The notes: generated by a model not told the origin, from the sequence alone. Shown: positions 1,985 to 49,995, counted from the first letter of the stretch. The stretch: 64,000 nucleotides of DNA from Patescibacteria group bacterium (GCA_026004595.1 BPJL01000007.1:12460-76459), one strand, 5' to 3'. Translations and numbers: made by a program.

Positions 1985-4900
1985 GTGTTAAAAGGGTTTA
2001 AGTTTTCCAAAAACCAATTAAGCCCGGCTATATCCCGTGTGATTTCTATATTATTTTTTGTGAACAGTTTGTGTAAAAAGTGAGCAGTATATACCATCTA
2101 GTGGCCATAAAAACATGCTTTTTACATCGGGAAGTAGTAGGGTAAAAAAGCATGTTTTTAACAGTTTTTGATCAAAGTTTATCACGAGAATAGTTTTTTT
2201 AAAAAAGAGTGTTTAAGAAAGTGTTTAGAAAAGTGCTTAGGAGAATCACTTAATCAAAGTTTGTTTAAGGGTTTAAAGCACACTAAACGTGTCCCGAAGA
2301 CCAATTATCACCAGCTATATCCCGTGTGATTTCTATATTATTTTTTGTGAACAGTTTGTGTAAAAAGTGAGCAGTATATACCATCTAGTGGCCATAAAAA
2401 CATGCTTTTTACATCGGGAAGTAGTAGGGTAAAAAAGCATGTTTTTAACAGTTTTTGATCAAAGTTTTATCACGAGAATAGTTTTTTTAAAAAGACTGTT
2501 TTAGAAAGTGTTTATCGAAAAGTGCTTAGGAGAATCACTTGATCAAAGTTTGTTTAAGGGTTTAAAGCACACTAAACGTGTCCCGAAGACCAATTATCAC
2601 CAGCTACATCCCGTGTGATTTCTATATTATTTTTTGTGAACAGTTTGTGTAAAAAGTGAGCAGTATATACCATCTAGTGGCCATAAAAACATGCTTTTTA
2701 TAACGGGATATACTGGGATAAAAAAGTATGTTTTTGGCGTTTTTTGATCAAGTTTTATCACGAGAATAGTTTTTTTTAAAAAGACTGTTTTAGAAAGTGT
2801 TTATCGAAAAGTGCTTAGGAGAATCACTTAATCAAAGTTTGTTTAAGGGTTTAAAGATCATCAAGCATGTCTCACAGACTAATTATCACCAGCTATATCC
2901 CGTGTGATTTCTATATTATTTTTTTGTGAACAGTTGTGTAAAAAGTGAGCAGTATATACCATCTAGTGGCCATAAAAACATGCTTTTTACATCGGGAAGT
3001 AGTAGGGTAAAAAAGCATGTTTTTAACAGTTTTTGATCAAAGTTTTATCACGAGAATAGTTTTTTTAAAAAGACTGTTTTAGAAAGTGTTTATCGAAAAG
3101 TGCTTAGGAGAATCACTTGATCAAAGTTTGTTTAAGGGTTTAAAGCACACTAAACGTGTCCCGAAGACCAATTATCACCAGCTACATCCCGTGTGATTTC
3201 TATATTATTTTTTGTGAACAGTTTGTGTAAAAAGTGAGCAGTATATACCATCTAGTGGCCATAAAAACATGCTTCTTTCAACGGGATATACTGGGATAAA
3301 AAAGTATGTTTTTAACGTTTTTTGATCAAAGTTTTATCACGAGAATAGTTTTTTTAAAAAAGAGTGTTTAAGAAAGTGTTTAGAAAAGTGCTTAGGAGAA
3401 TCACTTAATCAAAGTTTGTTTAAGGGTTTAAAGATCATCAAGCATGTCTCACAGACTAATTATCACCAGCTATATCCCGTGTGATTTCTATATTATTTTT
3501 TTGTGAACAGTTGTGTAAAAAGTGAGCAGTATATACCATCTAGTGGCCATAAAAACATGCTTTTTACATCGGGAAGTAGTAGGGTAAAAAAGCATGTTTT
3601 TAACAGTTTTTGATCAAAGTTTTATCACCGTCAAAATTATTTTTAAAAAGTCTTTTTAAGAGAGTGTTTATCGAAAAGTGCTTAGGAGAATCACTTGATC
3701 AAAGTTTGTTTAAGGGTTTAAAGCACACTAAACGTGTCTCACAGACCAATTAAGCCCGGCTATATCCCGTGTGATTTCTATATTATTTTTTGTGAACAGT
3801 TTGTGTAAAAAGTGAGCAGTATATACCATCTAGTGGCCATAAAAACATGCTTTTTACATCGGGAAGTAGTAGGGTAAAAAAGCATGTTTTTAACAGTTTT
3901 TGATCAAAGTTTTATCACGAGAATAGTTTTTTTAAAAAGACTGTTTTAGAAAGTGTTTATCGAAAAGTGCTTAGGAGAATCACTTAATCAAAGTTTGTTT
4001 AAGGGTTTAAAGCACACTAAACGTGTCCCGAAGACCAATTATCACCAGCTATATCCCGTGTGATTTCTATATTATTTTTTGTGAACAGTTTGTGTAAAAA
4101 GTGAGCAGTATATACCATCTAGTGGCCATAAAAACATGCTTTTTACATCGGGAAGTAGTAGGGTAAAAAAGCATGTTTTTAACAGTTTTTGATCAAAGTT
4201 TTATCACCGTCAAAATTATTTTTAAAAAGTCTTTTTAAGAGAGTGTTTATAGAAAGTGCTTAGGAGAATCACTTGATCAAAGTTTGTTTAAGGGTTTAAA
4301 GCACACTAAACGTGTCCCGAAGACCAATTATCACCAGCTACATCCCGTGTGATTTCTATATTATTTTTTGTGAACAGTTTGTGTAAAAAGTGAGCAGTAT
4401 ATACCATCTAGTGGCCATAAAAACATGCTTTTTATAACGGGATATACTGGGATAAAAAAGTATGTTTTTGGCGTTTTTTGATCAAGTTTTATCACGAGAA
4501 TAGTTTTTTTTAAAAAGACTGTTTTAGAAAGTGTTTATCGAAAAGTGCTTAGGAGAATCACTTGATCAAAGTTTGTTTAAGGGTTTAAAGATCATCAAGC
4601 ATGTCTCACAGACTAATTATCACCAGCTATATCCCGTGTGATTTCTATATTATTTTTTTGTGAACAGTTTGTGTAAAAAGTGAGCAGTATATACCATCTA
4701 GTGGCCATAAAAACATGCTTTTTACAACGGGATATACTGGGATAAAAAAGCATGTTTTTAACGTTTTTTGATCAAAGTTTATCACGAGAATAGTTTTTTT
4801 TAAAAAAGACTGTTTTAGAAAGGTGTTTATCGAAAAGTGCTTAGGAGAATCACTTGATCAAAGTTTGTTTAAGGGTTTAAAGCACACTAAACGTGTCCCG

Positions 4901-5480
4901 AAGACCAATTATCACCAGCTACATCCCGTATGATTTCTATATTATTTTTTGTGAACAGTTTGTGTAAAAAGTGAGCAGTATATACCATCTAGTGGCCATA
5001 AAAACATGCTTTTTACAACGGGATATACTGGGATAAAAAAGCATGTTTTTGGCGTTTTTTGATCAAGTTTTATGACCGTCAAAACTATTTTTAAAAAGTC
5101 TTTTTAAGAGAGTGTTTATAGAAAGTGCTTAGGAGAATCACTTGATCAAAGTTTGTTTAAGGGTTTAAAGACCACTAAGCGTATAACGCGAACCAATTAT
5201 CACCAGCTATATCCCGTGTATTTTCTATATTATTTTTCTTAAAAAAAACTTATTAAAAACAAGCAATACCATCTAGTGGCCACAGCTTTAGCTCTCAACG
5301 GGAGTTAACGGTGTAAAAAAGTATGTTTTTAACGTTTTTTGATCAAAGTTTATCACGGTCAACAAAACTGTTTAAGCGTCTCACAAACCAATTAAGACCG
5401 ACTATATCACGTGTGTTTTATATTCTTTGCATAAAGCTTTGATATCATGTGGCCATAAAAGCGTGTTTTATCACGAGATA
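1985..5480. repeat. Tandem repeat array 1: ~12 copies of a ~288-290 bp unit (degenerate last copies), non-coding
   Basis: Recurring blocks '...CCCGTGTGATTTCTATATTATTTTTTGTGAACAGTTTGTGTAAAAAGTGAGCAGTATATACCATCTAGTGGCCATAAAAACATGCTTTTT...AAAAAGCATGTTTTTAACAGTTTTTGATCAAAGTTT...' recur with period ~290 (unit starts near 2015, 2303, 2590, 2880, 3170, 3460, 3750, 4040, 4330, 4620, 4910, 5200). Each unit contains a perfect 15-bp inverted repeat AAAAACATGCTTTTT/AAAAAGCATGTTTTT separated by ~21 nt. Confidence 0.95.
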
Positions 5481-5567
5481 TTAAAACTGGATGTGCTTCG
5501 GCGATATCAAAGCGTGTTTTAGGTGGTGCTTATCAAATTATGATTTAAAGTGGATCTTTAAAACACG

Positions 5568-6308
5568 ATGAAAAAAGCCATACTATCTGTTTTTGATTAC
5601 TCAGCTGTACCTCAGTTTTCTCATTTACCCTCTGCTGAAAGAGATTTGAGTCTAGCTTTCAAGATAGCAAAAGAGATATTAAAAATAGATGACATAACTG
5701 TTATCACTGATATCGACGTGACTAGCGGTTACAATATTATTAAACTGGATTACCCTGATAAAACAGCTGTTGTGAGGGAACTCAAAAGGATTGTAAAAAA
5801 CACGAGTAAACCGACTGACGTTTTTGTGTACTTTTCTTGTCACGGTGTTAAAAACGCTCTCTGTTTCTCTAATGAACTTTTTAGTTCAAAAGAGTTTTTT
5901 GATATATTTTTCAATAACGGATTACCCATTGGATCAACCATGCTAGTTGTTTTTGATACCTGTCATTCAGGTAGCATGAGTGATTTTCACTTCAGATATG
6001 ACCCCTTTACTAGGACGATGGAGAAAACAAAAGAGCTACCGACTGGCATCTATTATCCTTTGTCCGTTTCACTTTCAGCATCAGACGATGATAGAAAAGC
6101 AATTTCGACTCATAAAGGGTCGCCTTTTACTTATACGTTATACAGGCTTCTTAATGAACTGGACTGCGGGATAACAATAGAACAGTTGCATGACAGACTA
6201 TATGAAATGTTACCGACTGTTGCAAGGATTATGAACCCTACTATCTGTTCTACATCATCGAGGGAAAGAGCAAAGATACCGTTTTTTCATAATCTGGATA
6301 ACTGTTAA
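5568..6308 (+). CDS. Metacaspase/caspase-like cysteine peptidase (C14 family)
   Basis: Catalytic dyad motifs 'YFSCHGV' (His) and 'VFDTCHSGSM' (Cys, D-x-C-H-S-G as in metacaspases/paracaspases) at the expected spacing (~45 aa). Confidence 0.75.
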   Translation: MKKAILSVFDYSAVPQFSHLPSAERDLSLAFKIAKEILKIDDITVITDIDVTSGYNIIKLDYPDKTAVVRELKRIVKNTSKPTDVFVYFSCHGVKNALCFSNELFSSKEFFDIFFNNGLPIGSTMLVVFDTCHSGSMSDFHFRYDPFTRTMEKTKELPTGIYYPLSVSLSASDDDRKAISTHKGSPFTYTLYRLLNELDCGITIEQLHDRLYEMLPTVARIMNPTICSTSSRERAKIPFFHNLDNC

Positions 6309-6318
6309 GATCTTTTTT

Positions 6319-9300
6319 TTGAAACATCATTTAAATGTTAATAGTAAAATGGACAAAAATTTTTTCGTTGTTACGTTAAGTAGTAATGACTATTTACAGT
6401 CGAAAGAAAGAAACACAATCCCCCCTCTTCCGACAACTGAAAAATCAGAGTTTTATCTCCCTCGTGATTGGGATATGCTTCTCAGTATTTTAAAGAACAG
6501 AGCAAATATGTATATTACTGACTCGTTAAGAACCCAGAAAAATTTATCCGTTTTGAAGAAAGCTATGGGTAACTTGGACTGGCTGAATGATCTTTATAAT
6601 GACCAGTTAAACAATGCAATAAAACAGAATAACTTTGTACTTATAGGAGACATAAAGAATGTACTTGCGACCTTTGCCAAGAAACATCATGTGATTAAAC
6701 TGGATCTTCTTGAGACAATAAACACTAAGATACTTGATATTGTCGATGCGATTTTACAAAAAGAAGAAAACATCGAGTTTCAAAGAAACATTGAACAGTT
6801 AAGGGCTCTAAGAAGTGAAATAAACACTGATATTTTAAGCGAGGTTAACATTAAAGGAGTTGTAGTAGACGTGTCTAACATGATTGGAAGAAAATATGAC
6901 ATGTTAAGAATGGTAAAAACTGAAGACGCAGAAACAGCAAAACTTTTCCTCAGAGTAAGACAACGGTTGGTTGATTTTTTTAGGAAAAAAGGCTGTTCAA
7001 TAAGAACAGTAGGTGGTCTTCAGGCCAGGATAGATGATATAGAAGTGTATCAGTACGATGTTTCTAACAGACATTTAACTAAATTTTTGGAAGAAAACCT
7101 ATATCAAGAAGCCAAAGTTAACACTGATGTTGGAATTAAGCGTGAACGCAAACGCGAACGCGAACGCGAACGCAAGCGTAAACGTAAACTTGAACGTGGA
7201 AAGAAAAAAGAAACCGAACGTAAAGCCAAAGCCAGAGCCAGAGCAGAACGTAAAGCCAAAGCTAAAGCTGAAGCTGACGTTGAAGAGTTAGCCAAATCTG
7301 ACGGTGAAGCTGAAGCATTAGCCAAAGCTGAAGAGTTAGCCAAAGCCAAAGCTGAAGCTGACGGTGATACCGAAGGCGAAGCCAAAGCGTTAGCCAAAGC
7401 TGAAGCCGAAGCGTTAGCCAAAGCTGAAGCTGACGGTGATACCGAAGGCGAAGCCGAAGGCGAAGCCAAAGCGTTAGCCAAAGCTGAAGCCGAAGCGTTG
7501 ACCGGAGCGTTGGATGAAGCGTCACCGTCAGACAAAGACGAAGCCGTAACCAGCGACACTGACAGCGACGCCGGTGCCGAGCCAAAAAGTTTTGGAGAAG
7601 AAGCTATAGAAGAGATCCTCAAGAAATCAGGCGTTTCTTATGAAACACTTGAAGAGATATTTTCTGGTTCTTTAAGTGTGAAAGATGCTTCAAAGTATTT
7701 AAGAGAAGTAATAATCTGTTTACCATCGGCTGAAATATATAACCTGATTAAATCTGCTCAGATAAAGCCGGTGGAGTTTGTTCTCAAGCCGTGGCAGAAA
7801 ACGTTTTACGAGAAAATCATCAAAGGTGAGTCAGTGATTGTTATTTCTTCTACTTCCACTGGTAAAACATTTATAGCCATGTCAAGCATTGAAGCGATAA
7901 TAAGTGACGAAGACTTTGAAAGTAGCGTGTGTTTCATTGCTCCAACTTTTGACCTCGCTTTCCAACTTTTCAACAACTCATTTATAACCATGATGAACCC
8001 TATGAAAAAGATTGGATTTATAACGGAAAAGGCAATCTTCCTGCCTGAAAATGTTGACAGTGTTAAAATCTGGATTGGAACACCTGTACCCGTTTGGACT
8101 TTCTTCAAAACAAACAACATAACTGCTGAAAGAATATTTATCGACGAGATACATACTATAGCAACCAACTTGGGAGACAAAATCATTTCAGAAGCGATCT
8201 ACAACATTGCCAAAACGGGAAAACAGTTAGTGGGACTTTCTGCTACGATAAGGAACGAAGACTTAACAAGACTGATTGAGTTTCTTGACAAAAACATAAT
8301 AATTATCAGAGGACATGAAGAAAGACCTGTTAGACTGGAACGTGAAAGACTAAACCAGCTCTATGAAGATCCAGAGGAACTGTTTTGGTTTATTAAAAAC
8401 GAACTTCTTGGTAAAGAGAGAACACCTGCTGTGATTTTTGAAGAGGATGATAAAACGTGTCTTGAACAGTACAGAAAGTTGGTAGAGTGGCTGGATAAAA
8501 CCAATTCACATGAATTTGGAGAGTGTATAAATATGGGAAGAGAGTTTGAAATGGAGTTAAACGATCAGCTTGAACGTTTGAAAGCGTACGATGATCAAGA
8601 AGATGATATAAAGAACCTAGCTATATCCAAAATGAAAAAGAGGTTCAGAAACAAGATGGTAAACCTTATAGCAAAAGTGCTAAGAGGCCATTATAACATA
8701 AAGATTAAGCTTACACAAGGTGAGATTGATACGCTGAAAAGTATACTTTTTCCACCTAAGACAAAAAAACCCAAAAAGATTATCATCAAAAAGGTAAAAA
8801 AGAAGGAAGAGTCATCGTCTTCAGAAGAGACGATTGACGAAAGTAAACTTTCTATCGAGGAAATGCGAAGACTGAGAAAAAAGAGAAAGAAAAAAGAGAA
8901 AGAGGAGCGAATTCGTAAAAAGGAGAAGGAACAAGAAGAACTTGAAGAGATAGAAAGACTAAAGACGGCAGAGAAAGAAAAATCAAGAAGGATTCTTTTA
9001 TCAACCATAAGCAACCAAGCCGTACACAATATATCATTAGAAAACATTGAGTATTTTCCCGTTTGCATAAGGGACATTCTAAGAGACTACAATTCAAATA
9101 GACCTTTTTATGATGAGGTTAGTCACTTCTTTAAAATAAGTGAGGGTATTGACAGAGAAGACTTTATCATGATGAAAAAATCACTAGAAGATAAAGTTGC
9201 GATTTTTACTAGCAGAAAGAGTAAAGGTGAGAATGAGTCCTACAAAGAACCAGATAAAGAACTGTTTATACAGTCACCGAAAAAGAGAAAGTCAGACATA

Positions 9301-10596: not shown

Positions 10597-11297
10597 ATAA
10601 ATATGTTATCATCATCTGATTCAGAACTCTCTTCTTTTATTCTATAATCATCTATGTTAATCTTTGGCTGTTCAGTCTCCTCAAACAGCTCACGATACAT
10701 TAAAAACATGTTGGCCCAATCATTTGGATCAACTGTTTCTGGTAAAGTGTTAAGTAAAAGATCCTGCCACTTCTTTTCCTTTGTTGCGATAAGTTTACTG
10801 TAAATAACACCAAAAGTCTTTAGCATCATGTTTCCCAGAATTTTGTTTTTTAATGTTTCAACACTGTTTTTTGCCTTAAGAAGATTAATGGCGTTGTCTA
10901 TCAGTTTTAACTTTCTGCTTTCAAGCTCTAGTTTATACTCCTCTTTTCTTATCAATGACTGTATAACTTTTAACTGTTCCGTGTTACCGTTGAGTTTTTC
11001 TTGTTGTTCCATTTCCCTTAGTCTAGAGAGGTTACCCATCTCAAGAGAGGTAATCTCCTTTTTCAAAGAGCCGACAACTTCGACAAGCTTTCTACAGTTA
11101 GCTATCTCTGCTCTATATCTGTTGTACTCTTTCAAGTACGAACGTGCTTCTCTGTACACGTGGTCATCAGCAGGTTCAATAACTTTAAAGTCAGGCGTTT
11201 TAAGCAGTTCTGTAAAATATAAACTTCTATTCTGGTTTACTTTGACTATATCTGATTCATCAAACATGTTTTCTATAGAAGTATATTTTTTTAACAA
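10593..11297 (-). CDS. Coiled-coil hypothetical protein (234 aa)
   Basis: Long ORF, heptad-like charged sequence. Convergent with Erv1, overlapping by 4 nt. Confidence 0.6.
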   Translation of the reverse strand: MLKKYTSIENMFDESDIVKVNQNRSLYFTELLKTPDFKVIEPADDHVYREARSYLKEYNRYRAEIANCRKLVEVVGSLKKEITSLEMGNLSRLREMEQQEKLNGNTEQLKVIQSLIRKEEYKLELESRKLKLIDNAINLLKAKNSVETLKNKILGNMMLKTFGVIYSKLIATKEKKWQDLLLNTLPETVDPNDWANMFLMYRELFEETEQPKINIDDYRIKEESSESDDDNIFI

Positions 11298-11298
11298 A

Positions 11299-12441
11299 TC
11301 AGATATACATGTTGTTTATCTCCTTCACCTCATTGATTCCACTTAGTTTCTTATACCTTTCAAAGGCTGTTTTAAGTATCTCATCGTCTATCACCAGTTT
11401 AGGTGGTTTATTTTGATTTTTAAAATTCTTAAAGACGTTACCCGAGTAAACCTGCTTTGCGTGAAAAGAGAGTCTAAGTGTGTCGCCTCCATAGTGTGGA
11501 AAGTACTTCTCATTTCCCTTGAAAAACTTTTCCAAGTCAACCGTTGTAGTCCAGCCAGACTTTTCCAACTGAGTCTGAAACACTTTTGCTAATCCCCTAT
11601 AACTGTAACCCGGTATTTCAAAAAGAAAGGTACACCTTCTTTTTAGCCCTGGCTGTGCTTTGAAAATGGTGTTTTCTATCATGTCTTTATAACCAGTGAA
11701 GTAAACTATTATGTCGTTGGGGTTTTCGTCCATAAAACGGTTTAACTCAGTCAAAGCCTCTAAACCAAACTGGTCTCTTTCACCCGTGTAAAGGGAGTAG
11801 GCCTCTTCTATTATTATCATCTTTCCCTTATTGCTGTTTAGAAAGTTACGACACTTGATTGAAGTTTGGCCGGCGTATTCAGCAACGAGTTCGGGTCTAC
11901 CGCAAATCACGATGTATGACTCGTCCTTGTCTTCATGTAAACCCTTTGGTATCTGATCAACGTTGGTGATATCAAGTACCTCATCATCCACGTCGTTTAT
12001 CATCTTCATTGCTATCTCCTGTATTTCGTCTAGAAGTCTATTCTCATAGGTCTCCTTCAGTTTTTCTACCCGAATCAGAATCTCAGAAAGACTCATTGAT
12101 CTATCATACGTGTCCATTTTAACACTCTTTTGAACACCGATGCTGTTAAATATTTTAGCTATTATTTTTGCTACTGAAGTCTTACCTACGCCAGGCGGAC
12201 CGTAAATTACCCCGTGTAACATTTGACCTTCGAACTTTCCATTGTTTTTGTAAGCAAGAACAAGCATCATCTGAATCTGTCTCACTATTGCATTTTTTAT
12301 ATCATCCATCTCTACCATGTCCTTCAGTTCATGGAGAGCATTTATCAGTCCGGCCATGTCTTTTATTATTTCTACTAAACAAAAGTTTAATTTATTCATC
12401 TCGTTAAGAGACTTGATGAGTTCTTCGAGCTCATTCTCCAT
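11299..12441 (-). CDS. AAA+/P-loop ATPase
   Basis: Walker A 'GPPGVGKTS'. Walker B-like 'KMIIIEEAYSLY'. No helicase motifs. Confidence 0.65.
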   Translation of the reverse strand: MENELEELIKSLNEMNKLNFCLVEIIKDMAGLINALHELKDMVEMDDIKNAIVRQIQMMLVLAYKNNGKFEGQMLHGVIYGPPGVGKTSVAKIIAKIFNSIGVQKSVKMDTYDRSMSLSEILIRVEKLKETYENRLLDEIQEIAMKMINDVDDEVLDITNVDQIPKGLHEDKDESYIVICGRPELVAEYAGQTSIKCRNFLNSNKGKMIIIEEAYSLYTGERDQFGLEALTELNRFMDENPNDIIVYFTGYKDMIENTIFKAQPGLKRRCTFLFEIPGYSYRGLAKVFQTQLEKSGWTTTVDLEKFFKGNEKYFPHYGGDTLRLSFHAKQVYSGNVFKNFKNQNKPPKLVIDDEILKTAFERYKKLSGINEVKEINNMYI

Positions 12442-12450
12442 TTTAATTGG

Positions 12451-13311
12451 TTATAAAAAAGTTCTATCAAGTATTCCCTCGTCAAACACAGTAGAAAAGA
12501 GTATGTCCATTAAGAACCTTGTTTTGCTGTCGATGATGTTGTCTTTCACTATACAGTCCATAGAACAGTAACAGCCAACCCAAGATCCCTCTACCAAAGG
12601 AAGCCTTAAAGCGTGACTTATGTCTCTTATGTCACTTTTGCAGTAATCACACTTACCAGTAAACCATTCTCCTTCTTCTCTACAGTTACAGGTTAGCATA
12701 CGACAGCCACCAGGTGCTATGCTACCCTCACAACTTCTTCTACCGTTTACCGGTCCAAAAAGCCTATCAGGGTTATATGGACAGTCACTCACCATAAGAA
12801 TGTTATCTAACACAGACATCACTTCGTCCGTTATGTCTTCGTTGTTGGAAGTAAACTTTAGAGGAGGCCTTTCTTCTTTAAGCACCACGTCTTTCCAGGT
12901 AGACTTTTCCAAAAGCTCTTTCGTTTCGTCTGACTTTTTGCTGACCCAGCTGGGGTAGTCCGCGTAGTTCTTTTCCTCTCTTAGCAACCAGTGCCTGATG
13001 GGTGATTTCTCGTCTAACAGTGAAACAATATAGTTTTTTTCTATGTCACCCAGCGTTTCTTCTTTTAAGCATTTTTTTATAGCAAGCGGTATAAGAAACT
13101 CTTTACCGGTTCTTATCAGGTGCTCAAGAACGTCCACTAACTCTACGTCAGAGGGCAGCTCTTCATCGTAAAGGTAGTGTGTGATTAGCTCAGAGTAAAC
13201 CGGTACCTTACCGTACCTTTTTATCAGCTCATCAAGTGAGGGTGTATTACTTCTTAAATAAGAATCAACTTCTTGTTCCATTTTATATTTCTGTGTATAT
13301 AAATCACTCAA
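12451..13311 (-). CDS. Cys-rich putative zinc-binding protein (286 aa)
   Basis: C-terminal cluster 'CEGSIAPGGCRMLTCNCREEGEWFTGKCDYCKSD...CYCSMDC'. Confidence 0.6.
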   Translation of the reverse strand: MSDLYTQKYKMEQEVDSYLRSNTPSLDELIKRYGKVPVYSELITHYLYDEELPSDVELVDVLEHLIRTGKEFLIPLAIKKCLKEETLGDIEKNYIVSLLDEKSPIRHWLLREEKNYADYPSWVSKKSDETKELLEKSTWKDVVLKEERPPLKFTSNNEDITDEVMSVLDNILMVSDCPYNPDRLFGPVNGRRSCEGSIAPGGCRMLTCNCREEGEWFTGKCDYCKSDIRDISHALRLPLVEGSWVGCYCSMDCIVKDNIIDSKTRFLMDILFSTVFDEGILDRTFL

Positions 13312-13461
13312 TATTTATACGTTGTAACATTACCCAGCCTTGATACTACCATTCCAAACCCATAGGTAAAGAAAAGATACATCAAGAATGTGATAAAAAG
13401 AGATACCATATATAAAGGATAGCTAAACTCTGTTCCCCTCATTTTATTATAGTCAGATAAA

Positions 13462-15389: not shown

Positions 15390-15395
15390 TTTTGT

Positions 15396-15932: not shown

Positions 15933-15939
15933 CTTTTAA

Positions 15940-17505: not shown

Positions 17506-17510
17506 TTTAA

Positions 17511-19491: not shown

Positions 19492-19517
19492 TTTGTATGG
19501 TTGTATAATTTTTTACT

Positions 19518-22855: not shown

Positions 22856-23194
22856 GATTTAAGTTTAATTTATAATTAGAATATGAATCAATGCGGATAG
22901 TTGTTTTGTTTAAATGAACGCGTTTGTCATATTTAGGAGAAGGTGTACCTGTTCAGTTCCAATCGGACTGCTTCAGGAAAGAATAGAAAACGGTGAGTCG
23001 GTACCAGGCTGTGATAAAATGTGTTGTAAACTTAACATCCTTCACGCCCCTTTCTATTTTGTCGTCAACGTTGATGATGAGAGACTGGTTGTTAAAAAAG
23101 ACACAGGTATGGCAAGAAGAGAAGAGTCAACACCAGACTATGAAATCAAAGCACCAAAAATAGGATCCATAAAGCTTTAAACAGACTTTTGTTG

Positions 23195-25890
23195 ACTTCT
23201 TCTATCGTGATAAACTTTGATCAAAAAAAGCCAAAAACATACTTTTTTATTCCGTTATCACCCGTTGAGAAAAGCATGTTTTCATGGCAACATATATACT
23301 ACTCGGTTCGCAAAGCGTCGCAAAGCGTAACAAGTTTTTACGCAAGCGTTACAAAAATTAAAACAAAAAACACACGGATATAGTTGGGCTTAATTGGTTT
23401 TTGGGATACGCTTAGTTATCAAACAAACCTTGATCAAGTGTTTCTTTGAAGCTTGCACTGTTAAACCCTTTCTAAAACAAATTTTTTTAAGTTTGTTTAT
23501 CGTGATAAAACTTGATCAAAAAACGTTAAAAACATGCTTTTTTATCCCTTTATCACCCGTTGAGAAAAGCATGTTTTCATGGCCACTAGATGGTATATAC
23601 TGCTCAGTTTTAACAAGTTTTTTTAAAAGAATTAAGACAAAAAACACACGGGATATAGCCGGGCTTAATTGGTCCGCGTGACATGCTTGATTTTCAAACA
23701 AACCTTGATCAAGTGATTCTCCTCATCTCACGTTAAACCCTTTCTAAAACAGTCTTTTAAAACATTTGTTGTCAGTGATAAAACTTGATCAAAAACCGTT
23801 AAAAACATGATTTTTTATCCCTGTTTTTCCCGTTCAGAAAAGCATGTTTTTATAGCCACTAGATGGTATATACTGCTCAGTTTTAACAAGTTTTTTTTAA
23901 GAAAATTAAGACAAAAAACACACATGATATAGCCGGGCTTAATTGGTCTGTGAATAATCTTAAACACTCAAACAAACATTGATCAAGTGTTTCTTCGAAG
24001 CTTGCCCCGTTAAACCCTTTCTTAAAGCAGTCTTTTAAATATTTTTTATCCGTGATAAAACTTTGATCAAAAAACGTCAAAAACATGCTTTTTTAACAGG
24101 ATACACTGGGATAAAAAAGTATGTTTTTATAGCCACTAGATGATATATACTACTCGTTTTTAACAAACTGTTAAGAAAAAATAAGACATAAAACACACGG
24201 GACATATTCGGGCTTAATTGGTTTGCGATACACACTTGTGAGACTTTAAGACACTTAAACAAACCTTGATCAAGTGATTCTCCTCATCTCACGATAAACC
24301 CTTTCTAAAACAGTCTTTTTAAAAAAAACCTATTCTCGTGATAAACTTTGAACAAAAACCGTTAAAAACATGATTTTTTATCCCGTTAACTCCCGTTAAG
24401 AAAAGCATGTTTTTATAGCCACTAGATGGTATATACTGCTCAGTTTTAACAAGTTTTTTTAAGAAAATTAAGACAAAAAACACACATGATATAGCCGGGC
24501 TTAATTGGTCTGTGAATAACTTTAAACCCTTAAACAAACATTGATCAAGTGTTTCTTCGAAGCTTGCACTGTTAAACCCCTTTCTAAAACAGTCTTTTTA
24601 AAAAATCTATTCTCGTGATAAAACTTTGATCAAAAAACACCAAAAACATGCTTTTTTATCCCAGTTTATCCCGATGTAAAAAGCATGTTTTTATGGCCAC
24701 TAGATGGTATATACTGCTCGTTTTTTATAAGTTTTTTTTAAAAAATTAAGACAAAAAACACACGTGATATAGCCGGGCTTAATTGGTCTGCGTGATACTC
24801 TAGACACGCTTAGTTATCAAACAAACTTTGATCAAGTGATTCTCCTTATCTCACGTTAAACCATTTCTAAAACATTCTTTTTAAAAAAACCTATTCTCGT
24901 GATAAAACTTTGATCAAAAAATGCTAAAAACATGCTTTTTTATCCCAGTTTATCCCGATGTAAAAAGCATGTTTTTATGGCCACTAGATGGTATATACTG
25001 CTCGTTTTTTATAAGTTTTTTTAAAAGAATTAAGACATAAAATAACCCGTGATATAGTCGGGCTTAATTGGTTCGCGGGACATGCTTAGTGAGCTTTAAA
25101 CAAACCTTGATCAAGTGATTCTAAGCTTACCCGTTAAACCCTTTCTGAAACAGTCTTTTTAAAAAACTTATTTCTGTGATAAAACTTTGATCAAAAAATG
25201 CTAAAAACATGCTTTTTTATCCCAGTTTATCCCGATGTAAAAAGCATGTTTTTATGGCCACTAGATGGTATATACTGCTCGTTTTTTATAAGTTTTTTTA
25301 AAAGAATTAAGACATAAAATAACCCGTGATATAGTCGGGCTTAATTGGTTCGCGGGACATGCTTAGTGAGCTTTAAACAAACCTTGATCAAGTGATTCTA
25401 AGCTTACCCGTTAAACCCTTTCTGAAACAGTCTTTTTAAAAAACTTATTTCTGTGATAAAACTTTGATCAAAAAACACCAAAAACATACTTTTTTATCCC
25501 AGTTCATCCCGATGTAAAAAGCATGTTTTCATAGCCACTAGATGGTATATACTACTCAGTTTTTACAAAGTGTTTTAAAAGAATTAAGACAAAAATTACA
25601 CGGGATATAGTCGGGCTTAATTGGTCTGTGAATAATCTTAAACACTCAAACAAACATTGATCAAGTGTTTCTTTGAAGCTTGCACTGTTAAACCCTTTCT
25701 AAAACAGTCTTTTAAATATTTTTTATCCGTGATAAAACTTGATCAAAAAACGCCAAAAACATACTTTTTCACCCTACTACTTCCCGTTGTAAAAAGCATG
25801 TTTTCATGGCCACTAGATGGTATATACTATTCGTTTTCTATAAGGTTTTTTAAAAGAATTAAAACAAAAACACAAGGGATATGACAAACG
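23195..25890. repeat. Tandem repeat array 2: ~9-10 copies of the same ~290-bp unit family, in inverse orientation relative to array 1
   Basis: Units contain 'AAAAGCATGTTTT(C/T)ATGGCCACTAGATGGTATATACTGCTC', the reverse complement of the array-1 core. Period ~285-295. The many 60-95 aa ORFs listed here in the track are repeat artefacts. Confidence 0.95.
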
Positions 25891-25978
25891 CGGTGAGCTT
25901 TAAACCTTCATTGATTCACCGAAGCATTTACACACGACGTGATAGCTGGTTTTAGCTTATATCATATGTTACACTTCG

Positions 25979-34035: not shown

Positions 34036-34047
34036 CCTTTTTAAAAA

Positions 34048-34668: not shown

Positions 34669-34699
34669 TTGTTTTTTTAAAAAAAAGACAAGCCAAAAA

Positions 34700-36880: not shown

Positions 36881-36912
36881 GATTGTTTTTAAAAAAAAGA
36901 CAAGCCAAAAAA

Positions 36913-42398: not shown

Positions 42399-42415
42399 TT
42401 ACAATGAACTAAAAT

Positions 42416-43042
42416 TTAATCAAGATTGTATTCATCTTTAAGTTTCATTAGTTCCCTAACAAGTGCTTCGTTGTTTTTGATGTACTCTTCTATCAACTCT
42501 TCTAGACTGTGCTTTTCATAGACAAACTTAAACAGAATACCAAGAAGTGGAGAAGAAGCATTAAATATATTTCTTGCAGTGTAGTTGTTGACGATATCTA
42601 TGCTGGTAAAGCTGCTGGGAAAAAGCATTGATAAAATGTTCCACAGTTTAAGGTAAACTTTAGCAACGTGAGGGTGTATATAGAAACCCTTTTCGAATAT
42701 CTTGATCACGACCTGTTCTCTTGTTGTTAGGTTTATGGCGTTTCCGTTTTCATCAATGATGTAGTAGTGATTATCACCATAGACAACTATTCCTCCCGGT
42801 GAATAGGAGCTAACAGAGGCATACGGGTTTAAGATTGATATAGCCTTGATTAAAAAGCTGGCAGTGTTGATAACGTCTTTTACCATCGATTGTTTAAGCG
42901 AGGGATACAGCTTTTCTCCGTCAGTAAAGCAGTCCTTGCCGATGTACTCTTTTGGCATTGTTATTGACTTGTACTCTTTGCCAACTCTGTAGTATCCATA
43001 GAAGTTACCTTTAGTGTACTCAACATAATCAATCTTGTACAT
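42416..43042 (-). CDS. Hypothetical protein (208 aa)
   Basis: ORF, no motif. Confidence 0.55.
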   Translation of the reverse strand: MYKIDYVEYTKGNFYGYYRVGKEYKSITMPKEYIGKDCFTDGEKLYPSLKQSMVKDVINTASFLIKAISILNPYASVSSYSPGGIVVYGDNHYYIIDENGNAINLTTREQVVIKIFEKGFYIHPHVAKVYLKLWNILSMLFPSSFTSIDIVNNYTARNIFNASSPLLGILFKFVYEKHSLEELIEEYIKNNEALVRELMKLKDEYNLD

Positions 43043-45531: not shown

Positions 45532-47370
45532 GTGATTAAAAGTAGCTTCTTAAAAATGGAAACCAACATAAGAGAAGAATTAGAGAAACTTATACCAGAA
45601 ATCAGGTCCCCGATAAAAGAGATATCAGACCTGGCTAGAGAACAGATAATCGACAAACTAGCAATAATACTAAGTGATAACATTATGGACGATAAGTTAA
45701 AAAGACTTATCGTTACCTCTTTTTACAGGAGCAGAGCTGAGCCCGGTCATCATGTGGGAATAGAGGCATCAGAAGGTCTAGCCGGTCCAATGACACAGAT
45801 GACGCTATCCGGTTTTCATCAAGCCGGTTCCGCTGCTAACATTAGCTCCGGCATAGAAGCCCTAAAAGAGATACTTAACATCACCAAGAAAAGAAAGGCA
45901 GAAAGGACAACAATACACTTTAAAAACAGATACCTTTTACCCAACGAGATACTTGATCTAAAAAAAGAAATAGTAGGAGTGACAGTGAAAGACCTATTGA
46001 TTCAGTCGCCGAGAGACTTTTTGAACAAAGAAGAGGACAGTTGGTATGAAGCATTCAAAAGAATATTTTCAATAGAGTCCTTACCTCCAATATCAACACG
46101 GCTAAGACTAAACAGAAACAAGCTATTCGAATACGAGATAACAACGTATGAAATAATAGAAAAGATAAAGAAACAGTTTAAGGAGATAATTGCAATACCA
46201 TCTCCAATATCAGGTGAAAGTATCTATATTGACGTTTTTCCAACTGCTGAAGTTGTAAACAAGCACAGCAAAAAGCTTTCATCGGCGGGTAACCTGGAGG
46301 ATAAAATGCAACTCTTTCTTACTCAGGTGTTTAAACCGTCACTTGAGACAATAGTTATAAAGGGAATACCCGGAATAAGTGAAATCTTTCCAGAAACGGT
46401 AAGGGTTACCAAGATGATAAAAAACGTCTCAAGAAAAAACGACTGGTACATCTGGCTTGATAACATCAAGATGTTATACGGTGGGATCGATCGGGAAAGG
46501 GTTGCCGAGGTGATAGAAGCATCGGGAATAGAGATCGTAGAAACAATAAAAAGCGAGAAAATATGGATACCAATGGGCTTTAGGGTAAAGGCAGATGAAA
46601 ACCCATTAGAACTAATAAACAGAAGACTCAACGAGGAAGAGGAAAAACTAAGAGAAACGGGTGTGTCGTCTGACCTGTATAGAAAGGGAAATTACAGTTT
46701 TGTTTATGCTAACGGAAGTAACTTAAGAAAAGTTTTAACACACCCTTTAATAGACCCAAGAATTTCCATATGCAATAACATACTCGAAATAAACTCAGTA
46801 ATTGGTATACAGGCTGTTAACAACTTTATAATAAAAGACGTTTATGAGACAATAACCAACTCTTCGTCTTACTGTTCACCAAAACACATAGTACTTCTTG
46901 CAAACTTTATGACTGCGATAGGGTTGGTGCCGGTAACGTCAAGTGGTGTTTCAAAACACAACAGAGGTGCTTTCACCGATGCAACGTTTGAGCAGACAGT
47001 AGAGGCCTTTTTCAACGCAGCCTTAATAGGAAGATGGGAAGAAACAAGTGCAACATCAACGTCACTTTTCATAGGAGAGAGGGGAAGGTATGGAACGGGA
47101 ATATGCGAAGTTGAATTTGATGAAGAGGGAATGAAGGCGTTAGTCGGAGAAGAGAAAGAAACGGAAACCTTTAAAGAAGAGGTTACCGGAGCACAGATAA
47201 ACCCAGTCATTTTGGAGGAAAACGAAAACGACTATATATCAGAGAAGGTGATGCTTGAAACAAGCAAAGCAATGCTATTGGAACAACAGTCAGATGATGA
47301 GTCAGAAGACGTAGAAGAGATAGTAGACGAGAAGGTCATGAAACTAATCCAGGAACTTGCAAACGGCTAA
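45532..47370 (+). CDS. RPB1: RNA polymerase largest subunit, C-terminal portion (A''-like: trigger loop/domains G-H) with acidic tail
   Basis: 'AEPGHHVGIEASEGLAGPMTQMTLSGFHQAGSA' matches the conserved RPB1 trigger-loop region (…GEP.TQMTLNTFH.AGV…). Also 'GVSKHNRGAFTDATFEQTVE…'. There is no NADFDGD in this gene. Confidence 0.75.
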   Translation: MIKSSFLKMETNIREELEKLIPEIRSPIKEISDLAREQIIDKLAIILSDNIMDDKLKRLIVTSFYRSRAEPGHHVGIEASEGLAGPMTQMTLSGFHQAGSAANISSGIEALKEILNITKKRKAERTTIHFKNRYLLPNEILDLKKEIVGVTVKDLLIQSPRDFLNKEEDSWYEAFKRIFSIESLPPISTRLRLNRNKLFEYEITTYEIIEKIKKQFKEIIAIPSPISGESIYIDVFPTAEVVNKHSKKLSSAGNLEDKMQLFLTQVFKPSLETIVIKGIPGISEIFPETVRVTKMIKNVSRKNDWYIWLDNIKMLYGGIDRERVAEVIEASGIEIVETIKSEKIWIPMGFRVKADENPLELINRRLNEEEEKLRETGVSSDLYRKGNYSFVYANGSNLRKVLTHPLIDPRISICNNILEINSVIGIQAVNNFIIKDVYETITNSSSYCSPKHIVLLANFMTAIGLVPVTSSGVSKHNRGAFTDATFEQTVEAFFNAALIGRWEETSATSTSLFIGERGRYGTGICEVEFDEEGMKALVGEEKETETFKEEVTGAQINPVILEENENDYISEKVMLETSKAMLLEQQSDDESEDVEEIVDEKVMKLIQELANG

Positions 47371-47394
47371 GATTGCATGGTCAAAAACGCCAAT

Positions 47395-49995
47395 ATCCCG
47401 CTATAGCCCGTTAAACCCTTTCTAAAACAAATTTTGTTATCAATGATCAAAAAACGCTAAAAACATGCTTTTTTATCCCGATATCACCCGTTTTAAAAAG
47501 CATGTTTTCATAGCCACTAGATGATATATACTACTGTGTTTCGCAAAGCGTTTTAAAAGAAATAAGGCAAAAAACACACGTGAAGTGTCTGGTGATAAAT
47601 GGTCTTTGAGAAACATTTGATAGCTTTAAACTCTCAAACAAACTTTGATCAATTGTCTCACCGAGGCGTGTTTCGTTAAACACTTTCTAAAACAGTCTTT
47701 TAAATAATTGTTATCTATGATAAAACTTTGATCAAAAAATGCCAAAAACATACTTTTTTATCCTAGTTTATCCCGATGAGAAAAGCATGTTTTCATGACC
47801 ACTAGATGGTATATACTACTCACTTTTACGCAAGCGTTACAAGTTTTCTACAAAGAATTAAAATAAAAAACACACGGGATATAGTCGGGCTTAATCGGTT
47901 TTGGAAAATGCTTGTGATACTTTGAAAAACACTTGGTTATCAAACAAACGATTCACCGACGCATGTTTCGTTAAACACTTTCTAAAACAGTCTTTTAAAA
48001 AAATTGTTGTCAGTGATAAAACTTGATCAAAAAACACCAAAAACATGCTTTTTTATACCTGTTTATCCCGTTAAGAGCTAAAGCTATGGCCACTAGATGG
48101 TATTACTATGTTTCGCAAAGCGTAACAAGGTTTTTTATAAAAAATAAGATATAAATCACACATGATATAGCCGGTGATAATTAGTCTGTGAGACATGTTT
48201 GATAATCTTTAAACCCTTAAACAAACTTTGATCAAGTGTCTCACTGAGGCACGTTTCGATAAACACTTTCTAAAACAGTCTTTTTTAAAAAAACTATTCT
48301 CGTGATAAACTTTGATCAAAAAACGTTAAAAACATACTTTTTTATCCCAGTATATCCCGTTATAAAAAGCATGTTTTTATGGCCACTAGATGGTATATAC
48401 TGCTCACTTTTTACACAACTGTTCACAAAAAATAAGATATAAAACACACGGGATGTAGCTGGTGATAATTGGTCTTCGGGACACGTTTAGTGTGCTTTAA
48501 ACCCTTAAACAAACTTTGATCAAGTGTCTCACTGAGGCACGTTTCGATAAACACTTTCTAAAACAGTCTTTTTTAAAAAAACTATTCTCGTGATAAACTT
48601 TGATCAAAAAACGTTAAAAACATACTTTTTTATCCCAGTATATCCCGTTATAAAAAGCATGTTTTTATGGCCACTAGATGGTATATACTGCTCACTTTTT
48701 ACACAACTGTTCACAAAAAATAAGATATAAAACACACGGGATGTAGCTGGTGATAATTGGTCTTCGGGACACGTTTAGTGTGCTTTAAACCCTTAAACAA
48801 ACTTTGATCAAGTGTCTCACTGAGGCACTTTTCGATAAACACTTTCTAAAACAGTCTTTTTTAAAAAAACTATTCTCGTGATAAACTTTGATCAAAAAAC
48901 GTTAAAAACATACTTTTTTATCCCAGTATATCCCGTTATAAAAAGCATGTTTTTATGGCCACTAGATGGTATATACTGCTCACTTTTTACACAAACTGTT
49001 CACAAAAAATAATATAGAAAACACACGGGATGTAGCTGGTGATAATTGGTCTTCGGGACACGTTTAGTGTGCTTTAAACCCTTAAACAAACTTTGATCAA
49101 GTGTCTCACTGAGGCACGTTTCGATAAACACTTTCTAAAACAGTCTTTTTTAAAAAAACTATTCTCGTGATAAACTTTGATCAAAAAACGTTAAAAACAT
49201 ACTTTTTTATCCCAGTATATCCCGTTATAAAAAGCATGTTTTTATGGCCACTAGATGGTATATACTGCTCACTTTTTACACAAACTGTTCACAAAAAATA
49301 ATATAGAAAACACACGGGATATAGCTGGTGATAATTGGTCTTCGGGACACGTTTAGTGTGCTTTAAACCCTTAAACAAACTTTGATCAAGTGTCTCACTG
49401 AGGCACTTTTCGATAAACACTTTCTAAAACAGTCTTTTTTAAAAAAACTATTCTCGTGATAAACTTTGATCAAAAAACGCCAAAAACATACTTTTTTTAA
49501 CGGGATACACCGGGATAAAAAAGCATGTTTTTATGGCCACTAGATGGTATATACTGCTCACTTTTTACACAAACTGTTCACAAAAAATAAGATATAAATC
49601 ATACGGGATGTAGCCGGGCTTAATCGGTTTTGGAAAATGCTTGTGAACTTTAAACCAAACGTGCATCAAGTGATTCCGACGCATGTTTCGTTAAACAAGT
49701 TTCTAAAACATTTGTTGTCAGTCATAAAACTTGATCAAAAAACGTTAAAAACATGCTTTTTTATCCCAATATCACCCGTTGTAAAAAGCATGTTTTCATA
49801 GCCGCTAGATGGTATATACTACTCGTTTTTACGCAAGCGTTAACAAAAAATTAAAATAAAATTACACGGGATATAGTCGGGCTTAATTGGTTTTCGGGAC
49901 ATGCTTGATTTTACCGAAATGTTTTGTTAAACCCTTTCTAAAACATACTTTTTATCCCTTTATCACCCGTTGAAAGAAGCATGTTTTTATGGCTG
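47395..49995. repeat. Tandem repeat array 3: ~9 copies of the ~290-bp unit family (same orientation as array 2), including 4 near-identical homogenised units (48390-49570)
   Basis: 'AAAAAGCATGTTTTTATGGCCACTAGATGGTATATACTGCTCACTTTTTACACAA...' recurs with period ~290. The last degenerate unit supplies the stop codon of gene 49987..51606. Confidence 0.95.

What the first reader, a model, noticed from the sequence alone, without database searches (positions are those of the whole stretch)
1985..49995. Three large non-coding tandem arrays of one ~290-bp repeat family partition the window; array 1 is inverted relative to arrays 2 and 3
About 8.8 kb (14%) of the window is made of one repeat family in arrays of 9-12 units. 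Array 1 carries the ...CCATCTAGTGGCCAT... strand and arrays 2 and 3 carry its reverse complement. Each unit is itself bipartite, with two ~145-bp halves sharing 'TGATCAAAGTTT'. This architecture is reminiscent of baculovirus hrs and of the repeat-rich pithovirus-like giant viruses. The possible roles are replication origins, recombination hotspots or transcription boundaries. The inverted orientation on either side of the 5.5-23 kb gene block would favour inversion by homologous recombination.
Basis: partly seen in the sequence, partly recalled or inferred. Interest (0 to 1): 0.65.

Follow-up and report, generated by a model that had tools for sequence, protein, structure and literature searches.

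The report
Interspersed non-coding repeat arrays, giant-virus-like genome
Three real, non-coding arrays of one 289-bp repeat, each unit carrying a small hairpin, take up 14% of this giant-virus-like contig; they resemble the "homologous regions" of baculoviruses and the repeat clusters of pithoviruses, so this is a new example of a known kind of feature.

Summary
One ~289-bp family forms three intergenic arrays: 2009-5563 (+, 12 units plus a remnant), 23177-25905 (-, 9 plus a remnant) and 47346-49998 (-, 9 plus a fragment). Together they cover 8,937 bp, 14% of the window. They are non-coding and match no Rfam family or tRNA. The contig comes from a PacBio HiFi assembly whose reads can span them.

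The claimed two 145-bp halves are not real. The unit is a mosaic of about 8 near-invariant blocks separated by fast-changing spacers. One block pair forms a 15-16-bp-stem, 21-nt-loop hairpin, present in 28 of 30 units. In two units the hairpin loop is inverted.

Array edges are degenerate. The core of array 3 is up to 95% identical to array 1, while array 2 is at most 78% identical to either. This points to unequal crossing-over and exchange between arrays.

The family also occurs on a second contig of the same bin and nowhere else searched. Two of three close relatives carry kb-scale AT-rich arrays of unrelated sequence.

Best reading: hr-like cis-acting arrays that act as protein-binding platforms (origin or enhancer type) and as recombination substrates. 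The function is inferred, and selfish repeat expansion is a close rival. I rate it a new member of a known kind, of moderate interest.

The parts
2009..5563 (+). Array 1: 12 units of ~289 bp plus a degenerate remnant (5384-5563). It fills the whole space between divergent genes 644-1861 (-) and 5568-6308 (+).
23177..25905 (-). Array 2: 9 units of 273-289 bp plus a partial unit (23177-23400). This is the most diverged array, at most 78% identical to the others. It lies upstream of the Nudix gene 22259-22855 (-) and downstream of gene 25979-28015 (-).
47346..49998 (-). Array 3: 9 units plus a hairpin-only fragment (49940-49998). It lies between convergent genes 45532-47370 (+) and 49987-51606 (-) and overlaps the last codons of both.
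2296..2584 (+). Representative unit (A1_02, 289 bp).
2362..2395 (+). Most conserved block, AAAAAGTGAGCAGTATATACCATCTAGTGGCCAT. Its best 15-mer is 99% identical between diverged arrays.
2396..2446 (+). Hairpin: arm AAAAACATGCTTTTT, 21-nt loop, arm AAAAAGCATGTTTTT. Present in 28 of 30 units. DNA fold -13.1 kcal/mol, z = -5.8.
2455..2467 (+). First TTGATCAAAGTTT copy in the unit.
2539..2551 (+). Second TTGATCAAAGTTT copy, 84 bp after the first.
24079..24129 (+). Hairpin of unit A2_07, inverted relative to its neighbours. The arm polymorphism is inverted with it.
49482..49533 (+). Hairpin of unit A3_02 with its loop inverted relative to its neighbours.
48186..49632 (-). Core of array 3 (units A3_02 to A3_06), 79-95% identical to array 1 units.
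5184..5563 (+). Degenerate edge of array 1. Unit A1_12 has lost the 5' hairpin arm through the same AGCTTTAGCTCT variant seen in A3_07 (47895-48185).

Best explanation
These are genuine, non-coding, interspersed tandem-repeat arrays of one 289-bp family in an uncultivated giant-virus-like genome that was mis-binned as a Patescibacteria MAG. Each unit is a string of about eight near-invariant sequence blocks separated by fast-evolving spacers. The blocks include a 34-nt block containing CCATCTAGTGGCCAT, an AT-rich 15-16-bp-stem hairpin with a 21-nt loop, and two TTGATCAAAGTTT boxes. The arrays grow and homogenise by unequal crossing-over within an array and by gene conversion or recombination between arrays, most recently between arrays 1 and 3. 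The hairpin arms occasionally mediate small inversions. The most likely function is that of the homologous regions (hrs) of baculoviruses: multivalent cis-acting platforms for one or more sequence-specific DNA-binding proteins, acting as replication origins and/or enhancers, with recombination between arrays as a side effect. Shown here: the structure, the non-coding nature, the block conservation, the concerted evolution, and the presence of the family on a second contig. Inferred: protein binding and origin or enhancer activity.
For: The arrays and their orientation are real. The source assembly used HiFi reads with N50 10.5 kb and metaFlye, so single reads can span arrays of 2.6-3.6 kb. An independent k-mer assembly of run DRR290133 gives contigs that match window 11261-23236, 25799-34553 and 49862-53603 with 0 mismatches, and each stops inside an outermost unit. 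The arrays are non-coding, with no Rfam family or tRNA. The hairpin is in 28 of 30 units with z = -5.8. Block conservation: 15-mers are 93-99% identical between diverged arrays next to spacers at 27-40%. Columns that are polymorphic in one unit cluster coincide with those polymorphic in the other (odds ratio 5.4, p = 6e-9). Invariant columns are clustered (81 runs against 137 expected, z = -6.9). Degenerate edge units change 0.60 times per invariant column against 1.70 per variable column. Concerted evolution and exchange are seen. The family also lies on a second, 78.5-kb contig of the same bin: the spurious ORF KatS3mg101_0909 matches at E = 1e-10. Two of the three closest Topo II relatives with long contigs carry kb-scale, AT-rich, apparently non-coding arrays with palindromes but unrelated sequence: L165 12213-15373 and 17740-18595, and L169 at about 5050-8200. 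Baculovirus hrs behave the same way, conserved in architecture and species-specific in sequence. Baculovirus hrs have shown origin and enhancer activity (PMC4535591).
Against: There is no functional evidence of any kind: no transcripts, no replication data and no identified binding protein. Conserved blocks would also be expected if the element were selfish and the blocks served its own amplification. The closest giant-virus precedent, the pithovirus M1/M2 repeats, is interpreted as MITE-like invasion and not as a functional element (PMC10664404). The arrays have no consistent relation to gene orientation. Shared polymorphism between arrays could partly reflect gene conversion and not constraint. 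Alignment uncertainty in homopolymer-rich spacers inflates the apparent variability there.
Confidence: 0.45

Rival explanations
1. The arrays are selfish or neutral repeat expansion, like a satellite or like the MITE-derived pithovirus repeats. On this view the family spread to several intergenic sites and expanded by slippage and unequal crossing-over with no benefit to the virus. Conserved blocks serve only the element's own propagation or reflect recent common ancestry.
For: The same signatures are described for pithovirus M1/M2: higher identity within a region than between regions, intergenic clusters, and 16-18% of the genome. A pithovirus-like MAG, LCPAC302, has 13% direct repeats of unrelated sequence. 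Here the array edges are degenerate, the cores are homogenised, and some units are 98-99% identical, indicating recent amplification. Unit sequence turns over completely between relatives.
Against: No terminal inverted repeats span a unit, and the unit is not a whole-unit palindrome (-29.7 kcal/mol, z = -2.0, against -79 and -65 kcal/mol for the ~140-nt M1 and M2). There are no solo copies outside the arrays. No transposase was recognised in the window. The strong, repeated site-specific conservation in independent unit lineages, including decayed edge units, is more than neutral decay predicts.
Confidence: 0.35
2. The arrays are tandem genes or promoter units for small non-coding RNAs, with each unit producing a hairpin-containing transcript.
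For: There is a stable hairpin in almost every unit. Two stem substitution types give G-T, which would be a G-U wobble in RNA of the array 1 + sense. A weak mir-1-like hit was found (24.8 bits, E = 0.019).
Against: Nothing reaches an Rfam gathering score, and the mir-1 hit is far below its threshold of 45.6 bits and occurs on both strands. There are no compensatory changes, and there are at least as many disruptive stem changes as wobble ones. The TATA-like hexamers enriched upstream of this virus's genes (ATACAA, ATATAA, TATACA) are absent from the unit. The hairpin flips orientation in two units, which a strand-specific RNA would not tolerate well.
Confidence: 0.07
3. The arrays are clusters of binding sites for a host chromatin-boundary factor and partition the genome into domains, like the CTCF site clusters of herpesviruses.
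For: On the strand opposite to array 1 the most conserved block reads TGGCCACTAGATGGTATA. From memory, this matches the metazoan CTCF core CCASYAGRKGGC at 11 of 12 positions. The arrays are spaced 20.8 and 24.1 kb apart.
Against: The resemblance is recalled, not tested with a matrix. The mismatch falls on a strongly conserved C of the motif. A match to some known motif is not unlikely by chance. The host is unknown and could be a protist without CTCF. The virus encodes its own RNA polymerase. The arrays do not separate gene-orientation domains.
Confidence: 0.03
4. The arrays are an assembly artefact, or the contig is mis-joined at repeats.
For: Repeats are where assemblers fail. The k-mer assembly breaks at every array. 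Unit number and the relative order of the unique blocks cannot be checked here.
Against: HiFi reads above Q20 with N50 10.5 kb exceed every array length. The three arrays have distinct unit variants, degenerate edges and unique junctions, and the k-mer contigs reproduce those junctions with 0 mismatches. Collapse or chimerism would not create these patterns.
Confidence: 0.03

Closest known systems
Baculovirus homologous regions (hrs)
   Same: Both have several copies dispersed in one large dsDNA virus genome. Both are intergenic, AT-rich tandem direct repeats in which each unit carries an imperfect palindrome. Both are conserved in architecture but species-specific in sequence. Example: SpltNPV II has seven hrs of three to eight 64-bp repeats, each with a 24-bp imperfect palindrome, and these are active as origins and enhancers (PMC4535591).
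   Different: The unit here is about four times longer (289 bp). The palindrome has a 21-nt loop instead of being nearly continuous. The host genome is giant-virus-like, not a baculovirus. No IE-1-like binding protein is known, and function is untested.
White spot syndrome virus hrs (own knowledge: about nine hrs of 3-13 units of ~250-300 bp with direct repeats and imperfect palindromes)
   Same: The unit length, the number of units per array and the interspersed distribution are closest to this case.
   Different: The virus lineage is unrelated. The comparison rests on memory and was not tested here.
Pithovirus M1/M2 repeat clusters, and the direct repeats of the pithovirus-like MAG LCPAC302 (PMC10664404)
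   Same: These are giant-virus genomes in which 13-18% of the DNA is intergenic repeat clusters. Identity is higher within a cluster than between clusters, and no transposase has been found.
   Different: M1 and M2 are ~140-nt whole-unit palindromes with TIRs of 54 and 47 bp and folding energies of -79 and -65 kcal/mol. They have putative TA target duplications and alternate as (M1-M2)n. The unit here is a single 289-bp non-palindromic mosaic with one small hairpin, no TIRs and no independent half-units.
Satellite DNA evolving by unequal crossing-over
   Same: Homogenised cores, degenerate edges, local higher-order duplication (a 1,734-bp offset equal to 6 units within array 1) and exchange between arrays.
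   Different: The strong block-wise conservation is not expected for a neutral satellite.
Small hairpin-associated inversions (own knowledge: loop inversions flanked by short inverted repeats, for example in chloroplast DNA)
   Same: Two of the 28 hairpins have the loop in the opposite orientation between intact inverted arms.
   Different: Here the inversions lie inside repeat units of a viral genome. This says only that the arms pair or recombine in vivo, not that the flip is functional.

Membership tests
hr-type viral homologous regions (baculovirus, nudivirus, WSSV sense) | Several copies dispersed in one viral genome | tested here: met
   There are three arrays in 64 kb and at least one more on a second contig of the same bin.
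hr-type viral homologous regions (baculovirus, nudivirus, WSSV sense) | Tandem direct repeats, each with an imperfect palindrome | tested here: met
   28 of 30 units carry a hairpin with a 15-16-bp stem and a 21-nt loop, z = -5.8.
hr-type viral homologous regions (baculovirus, nudivirus, WSSV sense) | Intergenic, non-coding and AT-rich relative to the genome | tested here: met
   GC is 32-33% against about 38% in coding parts. No ORFs exceed chance.
hr-type viral homologous regions (baculovirus, nudivirus, WSSV sense) | Origin and/or enhancer activity; binding by a viral transactivator | not testable with these tools
   This needs transient replication or reporter assays and binding assays.
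Pithovirus M1/M2 MITE-like repeats | Unit of ~140 nt that is almost wholly palindromic (TIRs of 54 and 47 bp) | tested here: not met
   The whole unit folds at -29.7 kcal/mol (z = -2.0). The only strong inverted repeat is the internal 15-16-bp hairpin.
Pithovirus M1/M2 MITE-like repeats | Two unit types that alternate and can also occur alone | tested here: not met
   The halves are unrelated, and apart from truncated array ends they never occur separately.
Pithovirus M1/M2 MITE-like repeats | Sequence similarity to M1/M2 | not tested
Pithovirus M1/M2 MITE-like repeats | Intergenic clusters making up a large share of a giant-virus genome | tested here: met
   14.0% of the window.
MITEs in general | Terminal inverted repeats, target-site duplications and dispersed single copies | tested here: not met
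   No inverted 8-mer pair spans a unit. The profile search finds no solo copy, and the blocks are absent outside the arrays. Target-site duplications cannot be assessed in head-to-tail arrays.
CRISPR arrays | Short repeats separated by unique spacers | tested here: not met
   The units are contiguous and homologous over their whole length.
Known RNA families (Rfam 15) and tRNA | Match at the gathering score | tested here: not met
   0 matches at gathering score, 0 tRNAs, and only a sub-threshold mir-1 hairpin hit.
Protein-coding repeats | An open frame maintained across units | tested here: not met
   The longest stop-free stretch is 70-95 aa, equal to the shuffle expectation.

The most novel reading that the evidence does not exclude
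The arrays are true hr-type cis-acting elements of a giant-virus lineage. They would be multi-copy replication origins or enhancers bound by a virus-encoded factor at the invariant blocks. Their hairpins would extrude in vivo, as the flipped loops hint. Recombination between arrays 1 and 3 would produce genome isomers. Analogous but sequence-unrelated arrays in related metagenomic viruses would then make this a lineage-wide system that short-read giant-virus MAGs have systematically missed.
Probability: 0.3. Interest if true: 0.65.

Novelty: new member of a known kind. Interest (0 to 1): 0.4.

Why it matters
Replication origins and long-range cis-regulatory DNA are essentially unknown in giant viruses, and short-read metagenome assemblies break at exactly this kind of repeat. 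Here a HiFi-assembled contig preserves complete arrays. The block-wise conservation gives concrete candidates for protein-binding sites: the 34-nt CCATCTAGTGGCCAT block, the hairpin, and the TTGATCAAAGTTT boxes. The pattern of exchange between inverted arrays predicts genome isomers that can be looked for in existing reads. If the arrays are functional, hr-like elements would extend from insect and crustacean nuclear viruses to Nucleocytoviricota-like viruses. If they are selfish, this is a second independent case, after pithoviruses, of repeat invasion inflating a giant-virus genome.

Tried and rejected
- **Exact-motif scans.** TATACCATCTAGTGGC was scanned against IMG/VR and 185,579 species genomes, and the two-anchor pattern CCATCTAGTGGC-N52-66-TTTTGATCAA against JGI metagenomes. 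All hits were single chance matches. The one metagenome hit (L076) has no array.
- **Unit profile against fetched loci.** The profile was run against all 164 loci fetched at that point (1.9 Mb). Only the same-genome Logan contigs matched.
- **Spurious-ORF search.** A profile of the reverse-frame translations found one hit, on a second contig of the same bin. The forward-frame profile against 1.84 billion representatives found nothing.
- **Fetching the rest of the contig.** The rest of the 79.3-kb contig and the second contig could not be fetched, because the NCBI record is not indexed.
- **Naming the virus lineage.** Source names of homologues gave no organism names. A literature search for split RPB1 found nothing.
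- **Promoter hypothesis.** The hexamers enriched upstream of genes are absent from the unit.
- **Regulatory-motif hypothesis.** The conserved blocks do not occur upstream of genes. The one excess, for TTGATCAAAGTTT-like words, comes from the DUF285 coding repeats.
- **Bipartite unit.** Rejected.
- **Homology to relatives' arrays.** No homology was found between this unit and the arrays of relatives L165 and L169.
- **Survey of Topo II neighbourhoods.** 80 IMG/VR Topo II neighbourhoods were surveyed. The only long-period repeats have periods divisible by three, which suggests they are coding (not checked individually).
- **CTCF consensus.** Literature look-ups found nothing citable, so the resemblance stays a memory-based lead.
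Full report
**What is there.** Tandem Repeats Finder reports three long-period arrays. They lie at 2013-5237 (period 289, 11.2 copies, 91% matches), 23349-25882 (period 277, 9.1 copies, 81%) and 47444-49901 (period 289, 8.6 copies, 83%). The anchor CCATCTAGTGGCCAT occurs 12 times on the + strand in array 1. Its reverse complement occurs 9 and 9 times in arrays 2 and 3, at 265-293-bp steps. Inverted matches of up to 443 nt at 92% identity join array 1 to array 3.

A profile built from the 30 units gives full extents of 2011-5563, 23177-25885 and 47346-49998. These include degenerate terminal remnants at 5384-5563, 23177-23400 and 49940-49998. The profile finds no solo copy anywhere else in the window. 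The arrays total 8,937 bp, or 14.0% of the window, and their centres are 20.8 and 24.1 kb apart.

**Not coding, not a known RNA.** No ORF of 100 aa or more lies in the arrays. The longest stop-free stretches are 70-95 aa, which equals the 82-87 +/- 15 aa seen in shuffled arrays. Rfam gives nothing at gathering score and ARAGORN finds no tRNA. In permissive mode there is only a sub-threshold mir-1 hairpin hit on both strands (24.8 bits against a threshold of 45.6).

**Not an artefact.**
- The Topo II protein of the window is identical to KatS3mg101_0830, on a 79,304-bp contig deposited as a Patescibacteria MAG.
- That project used PacBio HiFi reads (above Q20, N50 10.5 kb) assembled with metaFlye, from 52 °C Katase hot-spring sediment (PMC9671151). 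Single reads can therefore span arrays of 2.6-3.6 kb.
- An independent k-mer assembly of run DRR290133 yields contigs equal to window 11261-23236, 25799-34553 and 49862-53603 with 0 mismatches. Each ends inside an outermost unit. The junctions are thus reproduced, and that assembler breaks where true repeats begin.
- Unit number and the relative order of the unique blocks still rest on the deposited assembly.

**Context.** The gene content is giant-virus-like. It includes eukaryotic-type topoisomerase II, split Rpb1, Rpb5, TFIIS, Erv1/Alr, a Nudix protein, an XRN exonuclease, a DEAD helicase and a metacaspase. Relatives exist only in metagenomes, at 43-60% identity. IMG/VR giant-virus MAGs match Topo II at 39-40%. 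The bin label is therefore wrong. I could not name the lineage.

Genes are tightly packed, so the arrays are the only long non-coding stretches. Array 1 lies between divergent genes, array 2 between tandem genes and array 3 between convergent genes. There is no consistent relation to transcription direction.

**Anatomy of the unit.** The alignment of all units and its column statistics show a mosaic. Some 15-mers are 93-99% identical between the diverged array 2 and arrays 1 and 3:
- TATATACCATCTAGT (0.99);
- the two hairpin arms (0.97 and 0.95);
- GAATCACTTGATCAA (0.93);
- TCAAAGTTTTATCAC (0.90).

Spacers between these blocks are only 27-40% identical.

The hairpin is AAAAACATGCTTTTT, a 21-nt loop, then AAAAAGCATGTTTTT. 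It is present in 28 of 30 units and folds at -13.1 kcal/mol as DNA (z = -5.8). The whole unit is not palindromic (-29.7 kcal/mol, z = -2.0). The loop carries two GGGATA motifs, and the motif ATATCCCGT near the unit start is the reverse complement of part of the loop.

The halves are no more similar than shuffles, and TTGATCAAAGTTT sits at positions 160 and 245.

**Evidence for constraint.** I split the units into two clusters: array 1 plus the core of array 3, and array 2.
- Columns polymorphic in one cluster are strongly enriched among those polymorphic in the other (odds ratio 5.4, p = 6e-9).
- They are also enriched among fixed differences between the clusters (odds ratios 5.1 and 8.6, p at most 2e-6).
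- Invariant columns are clustered (81 runs against 137 expected, z = -6.9).
- The decayed edge units change 0.60 times per invariant column against 1.70 per variable column.

The same positions are thus spared repeatedly. Gene conversion between arrays and alignment noise in homopolymer spacers weaken this test, but do not obviously explain it.

The blocks do not occur outside the arrays. The TATA-like hexamers enriched upstream of genes are absent from the unit. The blocks are therefore array-specific and are not the virus's ordinary promoter elements.

**How the arrays evolve.**
- Within array 1, units are 83-99% identical, excluding the degenerate edge unit A1_12.
- Part of array 1 is duplicated at an offset of 6 units (1,734 bp): the stretches at 2482-2924 and 4253-4658 match the same part of array 3.
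- Edge units (A1_12, A2_01, A3_01, A3_07 to A3_09) are degenerate.
- The core of array 3 (A3_02 to A3_06) is 79-95% identical to array 1 units but only 59-73% identical to array 3's own edge units. Array 2 is at most 78% identical to either.
- Arrays 1 and 3 share exact stretches of up to 117 nt, against 51 and 44 nt for the other pairs.
- A rare variant that replaces the 5' hairpin arm with AGCTTTAGCTCT occurs in A1_12 and in A3_07.

This is the pattern of unequal crossing-over within arrays plus recent exchange between arrays 1 and 3. Those two arrays are inverted, so reciprocal exchange would flip about 5.6-47.3 kb.

**Flipped hairpins.** In A2_07 (24079-24129) and A3_02 (49482-49533) the loop is the reverse complement of the loop in all other units. 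In A2_07 the arm polymorphism is inverted as well. This is what recombination or template switching between the 15-nt inverted arms produces. It suggests the arms pair in vivo. It is a mutational signature and does not show a function.

**Distribution.**
- Exact-motif scans of IMG/VR, 185,579 species genomes and JGI metagenomes gave only chance single hits.
- Searching translated units as if they were proteins found one hit, KatS3mg101_0909, on a different 78,562-bp contig of the same bin. Its sequence retraces the unit (E = 1e-10). The family is therefore on at least two contigs. A second frame found nothing among 1.84 billion representatives.
- No comparable array lies in six loci (three distinct relatives) around Rpb1 or in 80 IMG/VR Topo II neighbourhoods totalling 1.25 Mb. 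There, the long-period repeats have periods divisible by three, suggestive of coding repeats.
- Two of the three closest Topo II relatives with long contigs do carry kb-scale, AT-rich, apparently non-coding arrays. L165 has a 3.2-kb array of 80/159-bp units (27.6% GC, with an AT-rich hairpin) and a 238-bp x 3.6 array. L169 has five units of about 665 bp, each with a 44-nt AT palindrome and ORFs of at most 78 aa. L167 has none.
- The units of these relatives share no significant similarity with the unit here or with each other.

The architecture therefore recurs in the lineage while the sequence turns over.

**Interpretation.** The closest functional analogue is the baculovirus hr. These are dispersed intergenic tandem repeats, each with an imperfect palindrome. 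Their sequence is species-specific, and they act as origins and enhancers (PMC4535591).

The closest giant-virus precedent is the pithovirus M1/M2 system and the direct repeats of the LCPAC302 MAG, which make up 13-18% of the genome (PMC10664404). The defining M1/M2 features are not met here: whole-unit palindromes with 47-54-bp TIRs, two alternating unit types, and solo copies.

I favour hr-like cis-acting protein-binding platforms, with recombination as a by-product, at about 0.45. Selfish or neutral expansion follows at about 0.35. Small-RNA units (0.07), host boundary-factor sites (0.03) and artefact (0.03) are much less likely. Structure, non-coding status, block conservation and concerted evolution are shown. 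Binding and origin or enhancer activity are inferred.

**Verdict.** This is a real and well-defined feature and a new repeat family. It belongs to a known kind of viral genome element. Interest is moderate: it gives concrete, testable candidate cis-elements in a giant-virus-like genome, and it shows what HiFi metagenomes preserve that short-read MAGs lose.

Noticed in passing
window 45532-47370, 52422-54845, 55109-57496: Rpb1 is split at the same point as archaeal Rpo1N/Rpo1C, and the N-terminal part is present twice in tandem (807 and 795 aa, 44% identical). The C-terminal part (domain 5) lies on the other side of array 3. The best PDB matches are archaeal Rpo1N and eukaryotic Pol II RPB1 (E = 1e-90), far ahead of the ASFV and vaccinia polymerases. 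Relatives also have ~930-aa N-terminal fragments.
   Followed up: partly
window 34652-36742 and 36883-39801: Two adjacent large genes are built almost entirely of 72-bp (24-aa) DUF285/BspA-like coding repeats (about 25 and 37 copies). Relative L165 also has DUF285 genes next to its Topo II gene.
   Followed up: partly
whole window (contig of MAG KatS3mg101): The contig is deposited as 'Patescibacteria group bacterium', but it encodes eukaryotic-type Topo II, Erv1/Alr, TFIIS, Rpb5, XRN, Nudix, a metacaspase and a DEAD helicase. It is a mis-binned giant-virus-like contig from a 52 °C hot-spring sediment.
   Followed up: partly
window, upstream of most genes (e.g. 12441-12470, 18033-18060, 42399-42420): Genes start directly after an A-rich TAAA/AAAA-ATG context, with TATA-like ATACAA/ATATAA/TATACA words 10-25 nt upstream (up to 16-fold enriched, p down to 4e-8). 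This is a candidate promoter motif for the virus.
   Followed up: partly
window 2381-2395 and every unit: On the strand opposite to array 1 the most conserved block reads TGGCCACTAGATGGTATA. From memory, this matches the metazoan CTCF core consensus at 11 of 12 positions. No matrix test was run and the host is unknown.
   Followed up: no
L165 12213-15373 and 17740-18595; L169 about 5050-8200: Metagenomic relatives (Topo II 45-46% identical) carry their own kb-scale AT-rich tandem arrays with palindromes, with units of 80/159, 238 and about 665 bp. Their sequences are unrelated to the window's unit and to each other.
   Followed up: partly
window 57483-60581 compared with L167 and L169: XRN, TFIIS and HNH endonuclease genes form a cluster that lies within about 5-10 kb of Topo II in the relatives but about 24 kb away here, with array 3 and the DUF285 genes in between. 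This suggests rearrangement around the arrays.
   Followed up: no
window 7138-7496: There are in-frame low-complexity repeats with periods of 6-72 bp (GAAGCT/GCCAAAGC-type words, likely Lys/Ala/Glu-rich) inside the 1,269-aa DEAD-helicase gene.
   Followed up: no
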